From NCBI GenBank assembly GCA_024679065.1, contig JAGIQG010000012.1, forward strand, positions 58,280,001 through 58,344,000: DNA of 64,000 bases, written 5' to 3'. Positions within the stretch are counted from its first letter, which is position 1; each line of letters starts with the position of its first letter. Positions 243 to 64,000 of the stretch are shown one piece after another. Made by a program: the position numbers and the translations under genes. Origin of the DNA: Sphyrna mokarran (taxonomy: Eukaryota). Below the pieces are notes generated by a model, which made no database searches, had not been told where the DNA came from, and saw only the letters and a list, made by a program, of their open reading frames with translations.

Positions 243-437
<195 letters not shown>

Positions 438-5800: not shown

Positions 5801-6830
5801 TTTTCATTTTGTGGTAAATCAATCCACGCACTAACCTTGGAATGTAGTATGCTTCGTGGATATAGACACTTTTGTTTCATTGTTCTTAAGTTATTAATGC
5901 TGAATACTGCCAGTAATGCTCACAGAATACAATGAGGATGACATGATAAAACTGAGGGCATCTCGAGCTGAACTGTAAGATTCTAGCTGAGGTGTTCAGA
6001 ACTTTTTGAAAACCACGGGAGAAAAGATGAAGGAGTTCATGTTAGGCAAAACATTCTGGAAATGCGCAGAAGCCAAACAGTAGCTGGTAAAGTAAGTTAA
6101 CAGTGAGATGGGGCACTATATCAAAACTGGTTAAACCTGAAAAATTGGATTATAGTTTCTTTCCTGACCTCTTATCAATTCCTATCAGTTTTTGATCCTA
6201 TTTCAGATTAAAAGCATGTGCATATTCATTTTAGTAGTTTATTTTTATTCTTGATACAGAAATTGTTACCTAACTTCACCAAGAACATCCAGGTTAGTAA
6301 GTTTCTTTGCTGTTAACTATATTAATTATTTGGTGTCAATGCTATTTCAAGAGTTTGGTGATGGAAAATTTGAAGGGATAATTTATCTGTGATATAGTAC
6401 AGTGTACCATTACTCTGATAGGTAATTGTATATTATTTATATCTGGAATTAAGGATCTACTGATGACCATGTACTAATCATAGGCATTGCTGGCCAACCA
6501 GCAACTCCCATGTCCCACGAATGAATAAAGGATATTATTTATAGAGGCCACGGTATACTGCAAACAAAATTGTCAGTCTTGACACCAGACCATAGAATGA
6601 AGGATACCATGCAAATCTTGAATTCATCTCCTGACCATCATATATTGCATATTGTACTCTGTACACTTTTTTTTTGCTGGGCAGCCAGTGATAAAAATAT
6701 AAAGGGATTTGAAATGAAGCATGGATTTTTGATTTCCAAGATGAAGTATAATAATAAAAATCTCCCATCCCGAGAGTAGAAACACAGAAAGCACAATCTA
6801 GTGCGAGAACAAATATTGCAAAAAAGGTTT

Positions 6831-6864
6831 TGTCAAAGCTTTTTGTCTTGCACTCATCAGCACA
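6831..6864 (-). ncRNA. Decayed hammerhead-ribozyme motif
   Basis: tgtg CTGATGA gt gcaag ac AAAA agct TT gaca; the G of GAAA and the cleavage-site C are both changed by CpG-type transitions. Confidence 0.5.
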
Positions 6865-7719
6865 ATTTGCGAGGATATCAACTTTATTCTGTATAAGAGA
6901 GTGCTGATTGGTTGGCAAAAAAGCTGTAATTGGAGGAGGCATTGCCATGGAGAATGCATCAGTTAATGACAACTGACAGTTAACTGCCAAGCATTGTTTG
7001 AAAGTTTAAATCAGGCAGCTTGATTCTGATTGGTGAAGGCATTGCACTGAGGAATGAACCCAGAAGATTAAGGTCACTTATTTGTGTACATATTCTGTCT
7101 GCAAAAAACAGGGTTCTGTGTATTAATATATGTAGCTTCCAGTAGATGCAAATGCACTGCATTGTAAACCCGACTAACAATTTTAAATTGGTTGTCAGAA
7201 CCTTTGGCACACTGAGAATTAATTCGCAAATGCCATCCAATCGCAGAATTAAATCTAACGTGGACACCTTGTTTTGAATTTTGCAAGCACAGGCTGGTGG
7301 ATACAGGCTGTACCTTGCCTGTTGCAAACAACAGCTGGGTGAGACTTTAACGCGAGTGGCCAGTATTTAATGTGTACGACTTATATACCCGCATCACATT
7401 GGCACTGAAATTCAAATGCTAAATTGTTCTTCATTATGTGATAGGCAGAAAGTCATTTGCATTTGATGGCAGCATCCTGTTAGCGGTGAATACAATTTGT
7501 GTTGCTACTGCATAGTAGCAGTGTTAAACTGCCAACTGTTGCTCAATTTTTGAGATGCCTTGGCAGAGAATCCTTGGCAGTTAACTGTCAGTTATCATTA
7601 ACTAGTGCATTCTTCATTACAACACCTCCACTAATCAGGGTCCACTTGCCAACCAATCAACATTCATGTCTCATACAGCATAAGGTCATTATGTTCTCTG
7701 AAATTGATATTTTTGTGAT

Positions 7720-7753
7720 TGGCCTGATGAGTGCAAGATGAAAAGCTTCGACA
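7720..7753 (+). ncRNA. Minimal hammerhead-ribozyme motif (Penelope type)
   Basis: tggc CTGATGA gt gcaag at GAAA agct TC gaca: intact core, short stem II, palindromic AAGCTT stem III, UC cleavage site; stem I has one mismatch. Confidence 0.6.
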
Positions 7754-8074
7754 TAATGTTTTCAGCAATACTCAAGTTCTGTATTACCAAATGGCTGTAG
7801 ACATATTATAAATTTATAATTTCTAACTAATGTAGAATAATGTACTATATATGTTAAACAACAGCTCACTGCTTCTATAAACTACGGTGTGTTTATTGTG
7901 ATTTTAAAAATTAATGGCTGACTTAAAATAGATTTTCATACTAATGAAATGATGCATTAAACTGACCAGCATCAGTAACACATTCAATTCCTGAACTTCC
8001 CAGAGTTTTCCCCAATGTCCTCTCATAATCTTGGAAGGATATGAGCAGCACCCCAAGATTCTGTGTTTACGCCA

Positions 8075-8230
8075 GGGATTTTGTCAATCTCAAACCAGAG
8101 GACCCTGCAGATATTCCAACTATACTTGCCCCAAGACCAGAAAATCCCACCCAAGCTCAAAGAACATTTGCACGGCCCTGTCCTGCCCACTATGATTTCC
8201 ATGGTGAATGAGATGGGAAAATTCTGCCCT
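8075..8230. mobile_element. Short Harbinger-type MITE
   Basis: gggattttg...gggaaaattctgccc ends; similar to 25700-25830. Confidence 0.5.
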
Positions 8231-9997
8231 TGATGTTGATTTATTCAGTTGTCACAAAACTCCGACTGTAAATCTAAATGTTATGTCTCAGTGGCTCTTG
8301 GAACACAGCGAATAGTATATTTTCTAATTTATAAACAGGTGGAATCATGTAATACGCAGAATAATAAATACCTAGGACAAAATGAAAAGAAAATAATCAT
8401 TTTAGTCTGGAAATTATAGGTCCACTAATCATAGATAAAATGTATGTCTCTCAAAGTTTCCAGGAAAATTGACACTTTCTGCCATAATATTAGTGCTTTT
8501 CAGTTTGTGGGCAAAAATGTAGGACTTCTTTCCCATAAAGTGGGCCAGTCAATGAGAAGGAAGCAGCAACAAATCAGCTGTAAATTGTAATTAGAAGCTT
8601 GTTTGATTTACCAACACCTCTAAGCCTTCTCCAAGGACTAAGGAGAGATGGTAAACAATTCACAGGATGGTAATCTCCCCCGGAAAAAAAGTTCTTGGTG
8701 TATCGGAAGTGGGAGGAAGTAACTTGAAGCTGGGGACACTGATCAATCAACATAGTCATAATGCAGTTAACTCACCCTCAGAGCAACGGTAACATAAAGT
8801 TCAGGGAAGTCTAAGCCAACAGGAAAGCACTGTAATCTTACAAACTGCCAACACAGTTCAGACAGAATCTTCCATTCTGGAGACTAAGTTAGTGGCTGGC
8901 GGGGAAGTCAGCGTGATTCCTGCGGATAACAGGTTGGGTGAACACGCACAATCTTCCACTTTTGAGCTCATTAATTATACATCAGCAAGCAGTTTGGTGA
9001 ATCTTGTGGTAGAGAACAGCAGGAAGTGGCTTGCCCCACCATTATTACTTCTTGGGGTCAAAAGTCATGGCACCATTTTTATGGGGCACCCAAACAGACA
9101 TTCATTCATTCCAGTCCAGGAGATCCATGCTGCTCCTCCAGAGGCCTTGTGGCCACAGCTCATACGGAAGAAATTCACAGATGGGAGCAACCACATCCTA
9201 GGACCTACGTGGGTGCCTCTGGCATTGCCTTTCACTTATCTTTACACAACAGCACCGCTGACCATACACCCATTCTTGAGACAATGCTCACCATTGCAGA
9301 GGTCCATGTTTGCTGGAACCTTGACCCTGCAGCCTTTTGCTGCTCAGGATCTTGTTCCTCTTAGCCCTGTGCAGACTGATGACGCAACTTCATTCTCGTC
9401 ATCTGGATTTGAGCAGCCAGCATCATCAACGGCCTCAGTGGACGACTGAATAAGTGATACATTATGCGAACATGCCGTGTACTGGTCTCCTTGCATCTCA
9501 AAGCCAGCAGGCCAGTGTTAATCTGACCTCTGCCTAGACATGGCATTTACACCTCTAAGGTAAAGGCCATCCTGGAGAGCTAAAATGTTCATACACGAAA
9601 GCTTACGGCAATGTTGCATTTTGACCTGGGTGATGAGAGCTGTATACAAGAAGCCTGAAGTGGGCACCTTTCTGCTTGACCACTACCCCCAAATATCTAT
9701 AGAGCCTTGGCAGCATTGAAAGACTAAACACATGAGCCCTTCCAACCATTTCCATTCACTTGGGGAGACAGAGGTTTAGAGATACAAGTTTGGCTGACGT
9801 ACACCAGCTGTGCCCTTGGAGGCATCCATCTCCCTCCTCCCCTTCTTTCCTGCCTCTTTTTGCAGCCAATACAAATGGTACAGTATGAATGGCAGCTCTA
9901 CACCTTACTGCAATCTCGACGTTATGAATCAGCAACAAACTTGCGGCTGGATTTTACCACAGAGCGAGAATGCAACTGAGCAAGATGCTGAACTATG

Positions 9998-12570: not shown

Positions 12571-13753
12571 TAAGGAATAGTCATTGCATAACAGTGGTAG
12601 AATGTGACAGTCCATAAAATTTGCCAGCTGGTATCACAAGGAGCCTCTCCTTGTTCTTGCAGGCTCTGCCATCTCAAACCTGTATTACTGAAGCCCCTTG
12701 TACCAGGCAGCTGGAAAGTGGAAAAATATCAATCCAAATTACCTCTAAACAAGGACTCCAGCTTGCTTCCTGTAAATTCACATCTGCTCCATGTGGATGA
12801 GATGAACACTATACATCCAGTGGTGCTTCCAACAAAGATATGGTGTAACTGTCTCTTTAGTTATCAATCCAACCAGTTAACTACTTGACTGAACTAGCTG
12901 ATTGCAACACCACTGGGATTCCTCCCTCCAGCAATTTTGGCTAGCTCAGGGGAAAAAAAATTGGTAGGCTGTAACTGCACTCCACACACTGCTGCCCCCT
13001 CATGTCCAGTTGGCATTCTGACTGCATGCCATCAGAAATTTCCAGGCAAAATATAAGGTTAAATTAAATGCAACAAGAATGAAACAAAAGTCATTTGAGT
13101 CCCATCATAACATTACCAACTTGAAATCCCCGCTGGGGATTATTTTATTAACACACTCACTATGAACTTAATTGTGTTATGAATCACATCTGTCTTTATG
13201 ATGAGACTGGCTGGCAGTGCGGGTACCAACTTCCAGTGCCCACTGCACTGTTAGTGCATGGTGCTGTTTCGAATGAAACATTAATGACGGTGATATTATA
13301 ACTGCCATTTTATTCAGAGGTAATTTGCAACTGGCTTCTGCAGAATTATATTCTATCAATATCAAAACGACATTGCACATGCAATAGAAAGTTGCTAGTT
13401 CTCCAGTAATGCTGAAAAATATTCACATACGGTCTGTGAAGATTAGTTGCAAGCAGTGGATGAGGAGCTGAAACCTTTTAAAAATGTATGGCAAGTCACT
13501 AATGTAAACAGGCTGTTGGAAGATGCCAGAGAAAGCAAAGTCTGTTTTTTTCACATTTTTTTTCCTCTGCCCATCTCGGCCCTCCCACTCACCCATCTTA
13601 TAAATTGTGGTTGACTGGCGCAAATTCACAGCTTTGGAAGTGTACATAAAACCGCGCTCTCACACAACACACACACAGGATTATATCCCAAAAGGGAAAC
13701 ACGACCGAGATCGATGTCTGGGGTACCGGCTGCTGACTGACCTGTGGGCTCAC

Positions 13754-13886
13754 CGTATTTAGTCTGGTTGGAGGTGCCTGTGGTTTTGCTGAAGGATTCC
13801 TCCCAGATGGGGACGTACTCCGGGATCTCCGAGGGTTCTTCAATGGGAAGATCGCATAATCTGCTCATCGAAATCACCAATGTCAT
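13754..13886 (-). CDS. SERTAD4: SERTA domain-containing protein 4, first coding exon (exon 13754-13901 including 15 nt of 5'UTR)
   Basis: ATG at 13886 gives MTLVISMSRLCDLPIEEPSEIPEYVPIWEESFSKTTGTSNQTKY, resembling the SERTAD4 N-terminus (MTLVLSMNRFCEPIV..EIAGYQTLWE). Acceptor ttttgcag|c at 13902/13901; phase-1 donor ACG|gtgagc at 13754/13753. Confidence 0.9.
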
Positions 13887-18916: not shown

Positions 18917-20358
18917 TTAGAACATAGAACATAGAACATTACAGTGCAGAACAGGCCCTTCGGCCCTCGATGTTGCGCCGACCAATTAGGAACAAGCAGT
19001 GACCCTCTAACCTAAACCATTCCCTTTTCATCCATAAACTTATCTACTAACCTCTTAAACGCCACCAAACTTGGCGCATCTACAACTGACGCAAGCAGGG
19101 CATTCCATACCCTTACCACCCTCTGGGTAAAGAACCTACCTCTGACATCTGTCCTAAAACCACCACCCCTTAATTTAAAGCTATGTCCCCTCGTGCTAGC
19201 TTTCTACATCCTAGGAAAAAGGCTATCACTGTCCACCCTATCTAAACCTCTAATCATCTTATATGTTTCAATAAGGTCTCCTCTTAGCCGCCTTCTTTCT
19301 AACGAAAACAACCTCAAATCCCTCAGCCTCTCTTCATAAGACCTGCCCTCCATACCAGGCAACATCCTGGTAAACCTCCTCTGTACCCTCTCCAATGCCT
19401 CCACATCTTTCTTATAATGTGGGGACCAGAACTGCACACAATACTCCAAGTGCGGCCGCACTAGAGTTTTGTACAGTTGCAACATGACGTTGCGGCTCCG
19501 AAATTCAATCCCCCTACCAATAAAAGCTAAGACTCCGTATGCCTTCTTAACAACCTTATCGACTTGATTGCCAACTTTCAGGGATCTATGCACATATACA
19601 CCAAGATCCCTCTGTTCATCAACACTATTAAGAATCCTACCATTAGCCCTATACTCTACACATTTATTATTCCTGCCAAAGTGCATTACCTCACACTTTT
19701 CACATTAAACTCCATTTGCCACCTCTCGGCCCAGCTCTGCAACTTGTCCAAGTCTCTCTGCAAACTATAACACCCTCTTCACTATCTACCACTCCTCCGA
19801 CTTTGGTGTCATCCGCAAATTTACTAATCCATCCTTCAATACCCTCATCCAGATCATTTATAAAAATTACAAACAGCAGGGGCCCCAAAACAGATCCCTG
19901 AGGTACACCACTAGTAACCGAACTCCACGATGAATATCTCCCATCAACCACCACCCTCTGTCTTCTATCTGCTAGCCAATTCCTAATCCAATTAGCTAAA
20001 TCACCCTCAATCCCATACATCTGCATTTTCTGCAGAAGCCTTCCATGGGCCACCTTATCGAACGCCTTACTAAAGTCCATATATACCACATCAACTGCCT
20101 TACCCCCATCCACCTCTTTGGTCACTTTTTCAAAAAACTCAATAAGGTTAGTAAGGCACGACCTACCCTTCACAAAACCATGCTGACTATCCCCAATCAA
20201 TTCATTTCTCTCGAAATAACTATAAATCCTATCCCTAATAATTCTCTCCAATACTTTGCCCACAACAGAAGTAAGACTCACCGGCCTATAATTCCCCGGA
20301 AAGTCTCTCTTCCCCTTCTTGAACAATGGGACCACATTCGCTATCCTCCAGTCTTCCG
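18917..20358 (-). mobile_element. Young 5'-truncated CR1 LINE (RT domain, C-terminus, 3'UTR, (TTCTATG)n tail)
   Basis: [71 protein letters not shown]; one frameshift near 19770 and one stop near 19205. Confidence 0.97.
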
Positions 20359-20960
20359 TGGCTTGCATGGCAATAAACTGAGGAATTTCAGTCTGAGCTT
20401 TCACACTTGGGGGGCAGTTGTATTGTAACAAAAGATGAAGCATTGAGCAGTGCACTCTGGAAAATGATTGGTTTTAGAAGTGTTTTGTGGGAGTTGGCCA
20501 CCATTTTCTGGCTGGAAAAGACAGGCTCCAAGCTCTACTCATAGCTTTGTGCCATGTTGATGCCAGACTCCCTCTTGCTCCTTGTCCATTGAATTTCATT
20601 GAGGTTTTCTAATACATCAAACATTTCATTGTCCAAAGCAGTCAGTTCTGTTTTGTAGCCTGTAGCATCAAAGTCATTGTCTGAGTCCTCTAGGGCAGAA
20701 TTCACATGCAACCTTACCCTTTCTGTACTACCCTATTTCCCTGCCCAGGCTGCAATGTATTTGTGCCTGATGCAGCCTCAAATCTATCCGATGTGCAGAA
20801 TGTCAGTATCTGAGCTGGTACCAGTGAGTATGAAATCGTGCGCTGGCCTTTACCATCATCACTCTCTTCTCGACTTGCTCCCACTGCCTGGTCAGGTTGC
20901 ACATCTTGGGTATTTGAAAGATAAAAGGCTCAAATGTTAAAGTTTGGATACAGGAAGCAT

Positions 20961-31251: not shown

Positions 31252-32439
31252 CGAAGGAAGAGCGGTGGATATGGTATATATGGACTTCAGCAAGGTGTTT
31301 GATAAGGTCCCCCATGCAAGACTTATTGAAAAAGTGAAGTGGCATGAGATTCAAGGGATGTTGCTTTGTGGATCCAAAACTGGTTTGCTCGCAGAAGGCA
31401 TAGAGTGTTTGTAGATGGGTCTTTTACTGCATGGAGATTGGTCACTGATGGAGTGACCCAGGGATCTGTTCTGGGACCCTTACTGTTTGTGATTTTTATA
31501 AATGACCTGGATGAGGAAGTGGAGGGATGGGTTGGTAAATTTGCTGATGATGCGAAGATTGGAGATGTTGTGAATAGTTTAGAGGGATGTCAGAAGTTGC
31601 AGTGTGGCATAGATAGGATGCAAGACTGGGCGGAGAAGTGGCAGATGGACTTCATCCCCAATAAATGTGTAATGGTACATTTTGGCAGATCAAACGGGAT
31701 GATGGAATATAATATTAAGGGTAAGACTCTTAGCAGTGTGGAAGATCAGAAGGATCTTGGGGTCCGGGTTTATAGGACTCTCAAATCGGCTTTGCACGTA
31801 GAGGCTGTGGTTAAGAAGGTGTATGGGATACTGGCCTTCATAAATTGAGAAATTGAGTTTAGGAATCGGGAGATAATGCTGCAGCTTTATAAGAACCTGG
31901 TCAGACCCACTTGACGTACTGTGCTCAGTTCTGGTTGCCTCATTACAGGAAGGATGTGGAAGCCATTGAAAGGGTGCAGAGGAAATTTACAAGGATATTC
32001 CCTGAATTGGGTGGCATGCCTTATGAGGATAGGTTGAGAGAGCTTGGTCTTTTCTCCTTAGAGAGACAAAGGATGAGAGGGGACCTGATAGAGCTGTTTA
32101 ATATGATGAGAGGTATTGATTGGATGGACTCTCAGAGGCTTTTCCCCAGGGCTGTAATGGCTGCCACAAGAGGACACAGGTTTAAGGTGCTGGAGAGTAG
32201 GTATAGAAGAGAAATCGGGGGTAAGTTTTTCACTCAGAGGGTGGTGGGTGAGTGGAATTGGCTGCCGTTGGTGGTGCTGGAGGCAAATTCGTTATGGTTT
32301 TTTAAGAAACTTCTGGATGAGTACGTGGGACTTAATAGGATTGAGGGTTATAGGTAAACCTAGTAGTTAGACTTATGATTGGCACAACTTGTGGGCCAAC
32401 GGGCTGTTTGTACTGTAGTTTTTCTATGATTCTATGATT
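31252..32439 (+). mobile_element. Younger 5'-truncated CR1 LINE
   Basis: [45 protein letters not shown]; (ttctatga)n tail. Confidence 0.95.
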
Positions 32440-62294: not shown

Positions 62295-62608
62295 TTAGGA
62301 TTCCAATAATGAATGCCACCGACAAACTTGCTGTCCCTTTGATTCCTTCATTTCAGTCCAATGATTCAGCTCTTCCTCACCTGAGCTGTTGAGGCCTAGC
62401 GAAATCCAGCCAATCATTTCTTTGCGTTTCATGCTCCGTTTGTTATACACAGATAGTATGAGTGTCACATCGGAAAGCTGAAACAGTGCTACCTGAAAAA
62501 TGAATGTTTCTTTGTACACAGGATTTGGTTGGCCTCGACGGATGGACGTCTTACATTTGGACATCTCCTGACCCATAGAATTCAGCAATGTTAACTTGAC
62601 ATATGTGT
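62295..62608 (-). CDS. SYT14: Synaptotagmin-14, last coding exon (C-terminal part of the C2B domain)
   Basis: Acceptor tttttccag|AC ACA TAT GTC AAG. Reads [103 protein letters not shown], near-identical to the recalled SYT14 C-terminus. Synteny with SERTAD4 favours SYT14 over SYT16. Confidence 0.96.
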
Positions 62609-64000
62609 CTGGAAAAACAATTCAGTTTAACAGAGGCATCAGAGATAAGAACACTTCTTTCATCACTATACTGTTACCAATATCAAACATTTAGCAAGCT
62701 TCGACTAGCCACAACACTTGGTAAGCGTACTAGTCAATCTCCATTATGGAGTGTACAATACATAGAAGAAATGAAAAGGTATGCCTAAAAGACAGCAGAG
62801 GTGATGAAAATGAATCAAGAACAAGGGGCAACAGGGAGCACAGAAATGCCATCAAAACAATTTGGCATGGGATGGACATTAAGAACAGCAACAGCTGGAA
62901 TAACAATCTCTCCATTGTTTTTATTTAATTTCTGAACTAATTAATATATATGAAAAAATAAATTTATTAGGTGAATTATTAGAACCAGTTTGAATCTTGT
63001 GAATCTGAATGTTAGGTATAACCATTTTTTTGAATAAATTTGTTGACTTTTTCCTCCAATTTTATACTGACCTGGGTGAGGGTTGACAGTGTGGAGAATC
63101 TTTAAAATATCCCTTTTGATGAAAGTAATATATCATCAGGCATCCACAGGCTATAGGCTCCATTCAGTGTACAACTCTTTTATCCTGCCACAATAATATA
63201 TATCAATCCCACCTTCAGAACACTGCGATATTTTCATTTATTATGGGCTTGCTGAGTGAGATTACCAGTGCTATTCCAATCACTCTTCATTTTCAGATAG
63301 AATTTTTGCTGTGGTCTTTTATTTATTGAAACTGCTAAGTTGACTTCATAAAGAGCTGTTAATGGTAATCAATCTATCCTGGAATTAAAAAACAGGTCCC
63401 AGAATTTTAAAAATGTATACTAACATAACATGTATAATAGAGCCATCTTTACTTAAAAAAAAAACATCTATTTTGTCTTTCATACTCAAGCATAGTATTA
63501 CATTGAAATAATTATGCAGAAAAGTCATTCAGTCCAATCAACTTGTGTTGATGTGTATCTCCTTGACCTGTTCTTATATCTCTGTTCTCATATCTCTTTC
63601 ACCCTCTTTCAGAGCCACCAATTTATTCTTAAATGTTAACGCTGTCACCTATTACATGCCAGAAGAATGGTCAACTAGAAGGGGAAAGTCTATTGGGCAC
63701 AACTGAATAACAATTTGCATGCAAGATTTAATTTTCAAACAGATCATTAAATAGACACGTAGCATTCCCATTCCATTCAAATTGGTGGAATGCTGATCAA
63801 ATACGCAAATAGAGGTTCAGTTACACTAGGCACCAAGGTGTCTTAGAGGTGGAACAGCTAAAGACCACTCAGGATATTTTTTGGACAGATTTTTATGCAG
63901 CAAGTTTCCACTCACTATTGGCCACCACCATCATTCCTTCAGGATCCCCAGTTCCAAAATAAGCCCTATTTTCTGGCTGGATTAGTGGAAAATGTTGGCT

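What the first reader, a model, noticed from the sequence alone, without database searches (positions are those of the whole stretch)
6814..7770. Inverted ~190-bp arms in a SERTAD4 intron, each ending in a minimal hammerhead ribozyme core
Seen: 6814-6992 (minus) and 7573-7770 (plus) are diverged inverse copies around a ~580-bp spacer. Combining them gives tgtc-CUGAUGA-GU gcaag AC-GAAA-AGCU-UC-gaca: stem I (ugUc/gaca), a tiny stem II, a self-complementary AAGCUU stem III and a UC cleavage site. Known: Penelope-like retroelements carry such minimal hammerheads in their pseudo-LTRs, often in inverted arrangement, and these are thought to cleave as dimers. Inference: this is a Penelope/retrozyme-like family. 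The copy on the SERTAD4 sense (minus) strand has lost the G of GAAA, while the antisense copy keeps the core. That fits either CpG decay or selection against cutting the pre-mRNA.
Basis: partly seen in the sequence, partly recalled or inferred. Interest (0 to 1): 0.7.

Follow-up and report, generated by a model that had tools for sequence, protein, structure and literature searches.

The report
Decayed Penelope retrotransposon in shark intron
This is an old, broken copy of a common Penelope-type jumping gene, with the mirror-image ends typical of that group, lying in an intron of a shark gene; its two tiny self-cutting-RNA motifs are real but damaged by what is likely ordinary mutation and are probably inactive, so the locus is ordinary.

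Summary
The inverted arms and both hammerhead motifs are real, inside the 13.3-kb intron between SERTAD4 coding exons. The 'spacer' is the decayed 3' end of a Penelope-like ORF: it matches the C-terminus of full-length RT + GIY-YIG proteins (E 2e-11), and single genomic copies run RT, endonuclease, arm. The insertion (about 6799-7796) is a 5'-truncated element plus an inverted end repeat, a published layout. The family is large (585 exact 25-nt motif hits, 0 control) and old (median 15% from the majority). Its ribozyme core diverged less than flanks (6.8% vs 15%), which suggests function in the active ancestors. Loss of G12 is common CpG decay (44 of 123 copies), so selection is not needed to explain the sense copy. 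That copy also has no same-strand partner and is predicted to be buried in the arm-arm duplex. The antisense copy has damaged stems. A genome-wide sense/antisense test could not be run. This scan found the same kind of insertion many times on other shark DNA. Ordinary; interest low.

The parts
6799..7796 (.). Whole insertion: 5'-truncated Penelope-like element (minus strand) with an inverted end repeat at its 5' side; ends approximate, no target-site duplication recognisable
   Evidence: TSD scan no better than random
6799..7000 (-). 3' pseudo-LTR with hammerhead motif and tail (SERTAD4 sense strand), 12.6% from family majority
6830..6865 (-). Minimal type I hammerhead motif, sense copy: G12 to A (6844, CpG to CpA), G-G mismatch at inner stem I pair (6861), UUU at the cleavage triplet
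7010..7562 (-). Decayed 3' end of the PLE ORF (linker and GIY-YIG endonuclease; stops, frameshifts, deletions); 7532-7086 matches residues 692-842 of an 850-aa RT protein
7552..7579 (.). Inversion junction (body ends 7562, inverted arm starts about 7569) with a 14-nt near-duplication; microhomology-type join is inferred
   Evidence: (family D8)
7569..7796 (+). Inverted pseudo-LTR with hammerhead motif and tail (antisense to SERTAD4), 17.9% from family majority
7719..7754 (+). Minimal type I hammerhead motif, antisense copy: core letters and UC kept; stem I 3 of 5 pairs; stem II closed by G-U (7739, CpG to TpG)
7727..7796 (+). Likely start of the PLE ORF: ATG inside the hammerhead core, broken here by an in-frame TGA at the decayed CpG; the tail resembles the N-terminus of full-length relatives
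   Evidence: (weak, E 0.002 pairwise)
13743..13886 (-). SERTAD4 first coding exon (upstream of the host intron)
309..425 (-). SERTAD4 next coding exon (downstream of the host intron)

Best explanation
The feature is one old, 5'-truncated insertion of an endonuclease-bearing Penelope-like retrotransposon (likely Penelope/Poseidon clade) with an inverted end repeat, and both hammerhead motifs are likely dead passengers that decayed neutrally. Shown: the spacer is the ORF's GIY-YIG end; sister copies join RT, endonuclease and arm; the arm continues into the ORF start; the family has at least hundreds of copies of the motif; G12 loss is the common CpG-to-CpA change. Inferred from family knowledge: an active partial-tandem master was transcribed, its RT-endonuclease nicked the intron and began reverse transcription in the tail just past the hammerhead, stopped about 550 nt into the ORF, and a second, inverted copy of the end was joined head to head. 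In the master RNA the two-base loop of the AAGCUU stem III would have forced cleavage as a double hammerhead or with the element's protein. Predicted for today's SERTAD4 pre-mRNA: one mutated motif, no same-strand partner, paired into a ~200-bp imperfect arm-arm duplex, hence no cleavage.
For: Window 7553-7077 (minus) is the only part of the window hit by 8 of 9 long relatives, E 8e-14 to 1e-6; such relatives carry RVT_1 (3 of 3 scanned) and GIY-YIG (1 of 3). Walking upstream through copies gives the PLE RT and a GIY-YIG domain with C-x-C and two His, with no Cys-rich linker. L107, L110, L125, L127, L143 each hold RT, endonuclease and arm in order; L133 has arm, ORF start, RT, endonuclease, arm. 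585 exact motif hits against 0 for the reversed control. All 18 inverted motif pairs found in 103 loci point outward, as in the window. G12 site: CG 2, TG 69, CA 33, TA 11, other 8 of 123. Only 10 copies genome-wide fit an exact pattern that keeps both CpGs. Arm-arm duplex -199 kcal/mol against -64.5 +/- 6.3 for 100 shuffled partners; 31 of 36 motif bases paired to the other arm at p>=0.97. Layout, tail and ORF start in the end repeat are published (PMC8557442, PMC3846280, PMC11167929).
Against: Pfam gives no GIY-YIG hit on the window's own fragments and no RT or GIY-YIG hit on 14 of 14 single-copy fragments; the domain call rests on relatives and on majority translations. Only 7 of 17 short relatives hit GIY-YIG, 2 above the curated cut-off. 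No Rfam hammerhead match. No target-site duplication. No tree against named Poseidon references. At both ribozyme CpGs the ribozyme-compatible change TG outnumbers CA about 2 to 3 to 1, which plain symmetric decay does not predict. Stem II positions are not better kept than background (G 30%, A 27%). Folding results are predictions; no cleavage was measured.
Confidence: 0.9

Rival explanations
1. The host selected against ribozymes that would cut pre-mRNAs, so sense-strand intronic copies such as this one lost G12 preferentially while antisense copies were free to keep it.
For: The sense copy has lost G12 and the antisense copy has kept it. Tandem retrozymes are reported to be depleted from introns in Xenopus (10.64898/2026.07.22.740005, passages). 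A Poseidon hammerhead from anole cleaves once the element's protein is added (PMC11167929), so lone motifs may have been cleavable while the family was active.
Against: 44 of 123 copies show the same loss and 71 of 123 keep G, so sense-lost with antisense-kept is expected in about 1 of 5 inverted pairs by chance (0.36 x 0.58, my arithmetic). The sense motif has no same-strand partner matching the core pattern in the window and is predicted to be in a duplex. A tested metazoan minimal motif was inactive alone and weak as a dimer (PMC4209133).
Confidence: 0.05
2. The two arms and the spacer form a mobile non-autonomous unit of their own (retrozyme-like or fold-back element) that is copied as a whole.
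For: Inverted pairs recur: 4 of 30 pattern-sampled loci hold an inverted partner within about 1.5 kb.
Against: The inverted piece and the truncation point differ from locus to locus; no fetched locus shares the window's junction; the spacer is ORF sequence; no tandem arrays (3 direct pairs in 103 loci).
Confidence: 0.03
3. The insertion is neutral as a ribozyme but matters as a long intronic double-stranded RNA (editing substrate or splicing modifier) in SERTAD4 pre-mRNA.
For: Predicted ~200-bp duplex. The insertion is also present in DNA contigs of another organism (one sample) at about 94-95% identity.
Against: The arms are only about 72% complementary and each is as diverged from the family majority (12.6%, 17.9%) as typical copies (median 15.1%, 91 copies). 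It lies about 6 kb from either exon. Presence in a relative shows age, not constraint.
Confidence: 0.05

Closest known systems
EN+ Penelope-like elements of the Penelope/Poseidon clade, e.g. Poseidon of Anolis carolinensis (PMC11167929) and Pen2 of Adineta vaga (PMC3846280)
   Same: Single ORF of about 840-850 aa in relatives, RT then C-terminal GIY-YIG; end repeat holding a hammerhead and the first codons of the ORF; tail beyond it; 5'-truncated copies bounded by inverted end repeats; palindrome near the 5' end of the repeat.
   Different: Shark family, old and apparently inactive; ATG lies inside the core (CUG-AUG-A) rather than at the start of stem II; no TSD left at this locus; clade assigned by motif, not by tree.
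Minimal type I hammerheads (min-HHR) of metazoan PLEs (PMC4209133)
   Same: Conserved core boxes, short stem I (5 bp), G10.1-C11.1 pair, palindromic stem III that cannot close in a monomer, dispersed mostly as single truncated copies, some as pairs on opposite strands a few hundred bases apart.
   Different: Stem II is only 2 bp here, against 7-8 bp in the Schistosoma families and 6 bp in D. virilis as described in that text; no unpaired base between A9 and stem II; sharks are not named in the parts read.
Animal non-LTR retrozymes (10.64898/2026.07.22.740005)
   Same: Type I hammerhead related to PLE end repeats; one chondrichthyan genome was positive in that survey.
   Different: Retrozymes are non-coding tandem arrays; this copy carries ORF remnants and is inverted, not tandem.

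Membership tests
EN+ Penelope-like element | RT of the PLE type upstream of the endonuclease in one ORF | tested here: met
   Family level: majority translation shows the RT motifs; single loci align in order to an RVT_1-positive 850-aa relative. The window copy is truncated and has no RT.
EN+ Penelope-like element | C-terminal GIY-YIG endonuclease with CCHH motif | tested here: met
   Window 7532-7086 matches residues 692-842 of P0155, E 2e-11; C-x-C and two His in the majority translation; relatives hit PF01541. No direct Pfam hit on the window fragment.
EN+ Penelope-like element | Pseudo-LTRs, direct or inverted, that include the ORF start and an optional tail | tested here: met
   Direct arms around ORF pieces in L133, arm running into the ORF N-terminus; 18 of 18 inverted pairs head to head; 3' ends cluster near +50-59 and spread to about +85 from the core.
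EN+ Penelope-like element | Target-site duplication at the insertion | tested here: inconclusive
   Best flank match scored 1, random median 2; the copy is old.
Penelope/Poseidon clade | No CX2-5CxxC zinc finger in the RT-endonuclease linker (present in Neptune; criterion from PMC8557442) | tested here: met
   Read by eye in the majority translation and in P0155.
Penelope/Poseidon clade | RT phylogeny groups with named Poseidon elements | not testable with these tools
   No named reference PLE sequences were returned.
Minimal type I hammerhead ribozyme | Core CUGANGA / GAAA / UH with stems I and II | tested here: met
   Family level: complete in real copy L161; 4 of 106 in-register non-window copies pass all criteria with G-U allowed. 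Neither window copy passes.
Minimal type I hammerhead ribozyme | Core conserved beyond background | tested here: met
   10 non-CpG core sites 37 of 544 cells (6.8%) against 15.0% base-matched, 0 of 10,000 draws; N7 plus loop II 48 of 335 (14.3%), Fisher p 4e-4; copies picked by ORF homology only.
Minimal type I hammerhead ribozyme | Covariation in stems | tested here: inconclusive
   Outer stem I pair: 65 of 121 Watson-Crick against 45.6 shuffled, 0 of 2000, neighbours not significant; on 52 of the 125 motifs the whole-structure score was reached by 45 of 500 shuffles. It reflects two or three subfamily events; no covariation in stems II or III.
Minimal type I hammerhead ribozyme | Self-cleavage as dimer or with the element's protein | not testable with these tools
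   Needs in vitro transcription; AAGCUU self-duplex computed at -4.3 kcal/mol.
Non-LTR retrozyme | Non-coding tandem array with a hammerhead in each unit | tested here: not met
   ORF remnant present; 3 direct pairs in 103 loci, none an array.

The most novel reading that the evidence does not exclude
While this family was active, its protein-assisted or trans-dimerising minimal hammerheads cut host pre-mRNAs that carried a sense-strand copy, and the shark genome records this as a strand-biased loss of catalytic bases across its many intronic copies; the inverted arm would act as a built-in antisense lock that let such copies persist. This would be genome-scale in vivo evidence that PLE minimal hammerheads cleave.
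Probability: 0.06. Interest if true: 0.6.

Novelty: new member of a known kind. Interest (0 to 1): 0.14.

Why it matters
As a single locus it matters little: it is one decayed copy of a large family in a published layout. The family has modest use. Whether PLE minimal hammerheads do anything in vivo is open (PMC4209133; PMC11167929 found cleavage dispensable for insertion in vitro). Here the core diverged about half as fast as its surroundings, which points to purifying selection in the active lineages. With a gene annotation, the many dispersed copies would allow a direct sense-versus-antisense test of whether such motifs ever harmed host transcripts.

Tried and rejected
Rfam scan: no hammerhead family at E<=10. 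Pfam on window fragments and on 14 single-copy fragments: no relevant hit. A master subfamily with TG at both ribozyme CpGs: rejected, the two sites are unlinked (TG/TG 33, TG/CA 17, CA/TG 18, CA/CA 9). An element-wide strand bias in CpG decay: rejected, TG 1359 against CA 1351 over 101 ORF sites, some of which are not true CpGs. TSD search: no better than random. Single-motif folding: neither window motif folds better than shuffles (z +1.8 and -0.1); uninformative for a dimeric motif. Expression: no RNA holder listed; the two guessed-RNA contig sets laid gave only short pieces from other copies, which says nothing on expression. Whether the relative shares the G12 loss could not be read, because other copies swamp that position and 101 differences were not shown. 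Lunse et al. on dimer cleavage was not held. The 4x4 table and chi-square printed used the wrong partner column and were ignored; the offset-30 row is the true pair. In one search and the counts built on it four duplicate loci were dropped and L047 was dropped by mistake.

Full report
Observation. The inverted arms are present at the stated places: 6899-7000 with 7564-7665 (77%) and 6814-6866 with 7718-7770 (81%), about 72% over 202 columns. The + arm carries the hammerhead core with UC at 7719-7754. The - arm carries the same motif at 6865-6830 with G12 changed to A. SERTAD4 relatives (best hit 89% identical, a shark) map to minus-strand exons at 13886-13743 and 425-309 with canonical splice ends. 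The element is therefore intronic and the left-arm motif is on the sense strand. Rfam has no matching family, and the loose core pattern occurs once in the window against 0.46 by chance, so the motif is significant through its family only.

Family. The right arm drew 2193 candidates in the genome, 40 scored, 75-82% identical apart from itself. A spacer peptide drew 2825 candidates, 150 scored. A 25-nt motif pattern has 585 exact hits against 0 for the reversed control. Over the end repeat, 91 copies lie 10-28% from the majority (median 15%); the window arms lie at 12.6% and 17.9%. An exact pattern that keeps both CpGs of the motif fits 10 places. DNA contigs of another organism (two runs of one sample) cross the left end, the inversion junction and the right end at about 94-95% identity, though no single contig spans the whole stretch. 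The family and this insertion are old.

The spacer is coding remnant. In other copies the spacer runs on from the left arm. Its minus-strand frames read as a broken endonuclease C-terminus. A profile of 13 such fragments found 1217 proteins at E<=0.001; 7 of 17 scanned hit GIY-YIG, 2 above the cut-off. One of them led to 91 longer proteins, most annotated with RVT_1; 3 of 3 rescanned carry RVT_1 and one also GIY-YIG. Eight of 9 long relatives hit the window, only within 7553-7077 on the minus strand, E 8e-14 to 1e-6. Walking upstream through copies gave the RT, thumb and GIY-YIG domain in one frame, with C-x-C plus two His and no Cys-rich linker. By the criterion in PMC8557442 (passages) that points to Penelope/Poseidon; no tree was possible. 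Single loci L107, L110, L125, L127 and L143 hold RT, endonuclease and arm in order. Against: Pfam recognises neither the window fragments nor 14 of 14 single-copy fragments.

Anatomy. Read on the minus strand, the insertion is: inverted end repeat (7796-7569), junction with a 14-nt near-duplication, 5'-truncated ORF (7562 to about 7010), end repeat with hammerhead and tail (about 7000-6799). An ATG lies inside the core. The tail resembles the N-terminus of full-length relatives, weakly in the window (E 0.002) and more clearly in L133 (E 1.5e-4), where the arm runs into the ORF and a second direct arm follows the endonuclease. Among 103 loci with a motif there are 18 inverted pairs, all pointing outward like the window's, and 3 direct pairs; 4 of the 30 loci sampled by pattern alone have an inverted partner. 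This matches published PLE insertions: inverted 5' copy and tail (PMC8557442, passages), 5'-truncated copies flanked by inverted repeats that hold the first codons (PMC3846280, passages), ORF start in the hammerhead and reverse transcription starting in the tail (PMC11167929, parts 1-2 of 4). No TSD survives.

Is the ribozyme real? At family level, likely yes. Real copy L161 has the whole motif: 5-bp stem I, 2-bp stem II, palindromic stem III whose 2-base loop cannot close in a monomer. In copies picked by ORF homology only, 10 non-CpG core sites differ from the majority in 37 of 544 cells (6.8%), against 15.0% for base-matched flank sites (0 of 10,000 draws) and 48 of 335 for N7 plus loop II (p 4e-4). 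I read this as purifying selection among active master copies (inference); overlap with the start codon may explain part of it. The outer stem I pair covaries between subfamilies (65 of 121 paired against 45.6 shuffled), but this is two or three events, and on 52 of the 125 motifs the whole-structure score was not beyond shuffles (45 of 500). Stem II sites are no better kept than background.

The lost G. The base before G12 and G12 form a CpG. Of 123 copies, 2 keep CG, 69 have TG, 33 CA, 11 TA and 8 other (the sample mixes loci picked by arm, ORF and pattern). The first 100 of 585 pattern hits give TG 65, CA 22, TA 12, CG 1 (my count). The window's left arm is CA and the right arm TG, the two usual outcomes. 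Sense-lost with antisense-kept is expected in about 1 of 5 such pairs by chance. Only 4 of 106 in-register copies pass all motif criteria, and neither window copy does. TG exceeds CA at both ribozyme CpGs (69:33 and 67:28). The two sites are unlinked, the ORF as a whole is balanced (1359:1351), and 4 of 16 other sites with 60 or more copies are as skewed in one direction or the other, so I draw no conclusion from it.

Function today. The SERTAD4 pre-mRNA would contain one hammerhead-sense motif, lacking G12 and with a broken inner stem I pair, and no same-strand motif matching the core pattern elsewhere in the window. The arms are predicted to pair (-199 kcal/mol against -64.5 +/- 6.3 for 100 shuffled partners), with 31 of 36 motif bases paired to the other arm. 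A tested metazoan minimal motif was silent alone and weak as a dimer (PMC4209133, parts 1-2 of 4). Cleavage is therefore unlikely, and selection is not needed. It is not excluded: the genome-wide strand test needs an annotation I did not have, and the anole motif cleaves with protein.

Novelty. Layout and motif class are known. Two literature searches (hammerhead + Penelope + shark; three of Penelope, shark genome, retrotransposon, Poseidon) listed no paper whose title or abstract start describes this shark family. A 2026 preprint reports retrozymes in one chondrichthyan (10.64898/2026.07.22.740005, part 1 of 5 and passages). Supplements were not seen for any paper; those of PMC4209133 and of the preprint may list related motifs, and Repbase and Dfam could not be checked. 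PMC6155905 and PMC6765202 were seen as passages; Lunse et al. only as a reference entry and through that review. This scan's notes hold 55 similar findings in at least 10 genomes and 27 in this genome; these are unchecked AI notes, not support. Verdict: new member of a known kind, interest 0.14.

Noticed in passing
family-wide; window 6844-6845, 6834-6835, 7739-7740, 7749-7750: At both CpGs of the hammerhead the ribozyme-compatible change (TG) outnumbers the damaging one (CA) 2 to 3 fold (65:22; 69:33 and 67:28), though TG at the first site puts a stop in codon 5 of the likely ORF. Unlinked and within the spread of other sites; unexplained.
   Followed up: partly
window 6974-6989 and 7575-7590: 16-nt near-palindrome at the 5' part of the end repeat; the inverted arm begins 6 nt before it, and several sister copies' inverted pieces start nearby. 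Palindromes at such junctions are described in PMC3846280.
   Followed up: no
L133 (G000:C771:47312909-47316166): Direct arm, ORF start, RT piece, endonuclease piece, direct arm within about 2.2 kb: an internally deleted or interrupted copy with the full end-repeat layout.
   Followed up: partly
L063, L062, L079, L090, L102, L120: Inverted copies that include several hundred bases of ORF on both sides, so the inverted piece is a second truncated element of variable length rather than a fixed repeat.
   Followed up: no
loci L069-L098, L152-L161: At least three subfamilies differ at the outer stem I pair (U-A, C-G, purine-U) and in the tail.
   Followed up: partly
window 19207-20473 (-) and 31348-31845 (+): LINE-type reverse transcriptase fragments (RVT_1 E 1.5e-30 and 3e-11), unrelated to the Penelope element.
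   Followed up: no
window 62298-62621 (-): C2-domain exon (E 1.4e-15); from recalled human synteny probably SYT14, not checked.
   Followed up: no
window about 13728-13742 (-): Two GT donors 15 nt apart after the first SERTAD4 coding exon, matching the short and long forms among shark relatives.
   Followed up: no
window about 6440-6530 and 8110-8240: Two other very high-copy short repeats flank the insertion (depth peaks).
   Followed up: no
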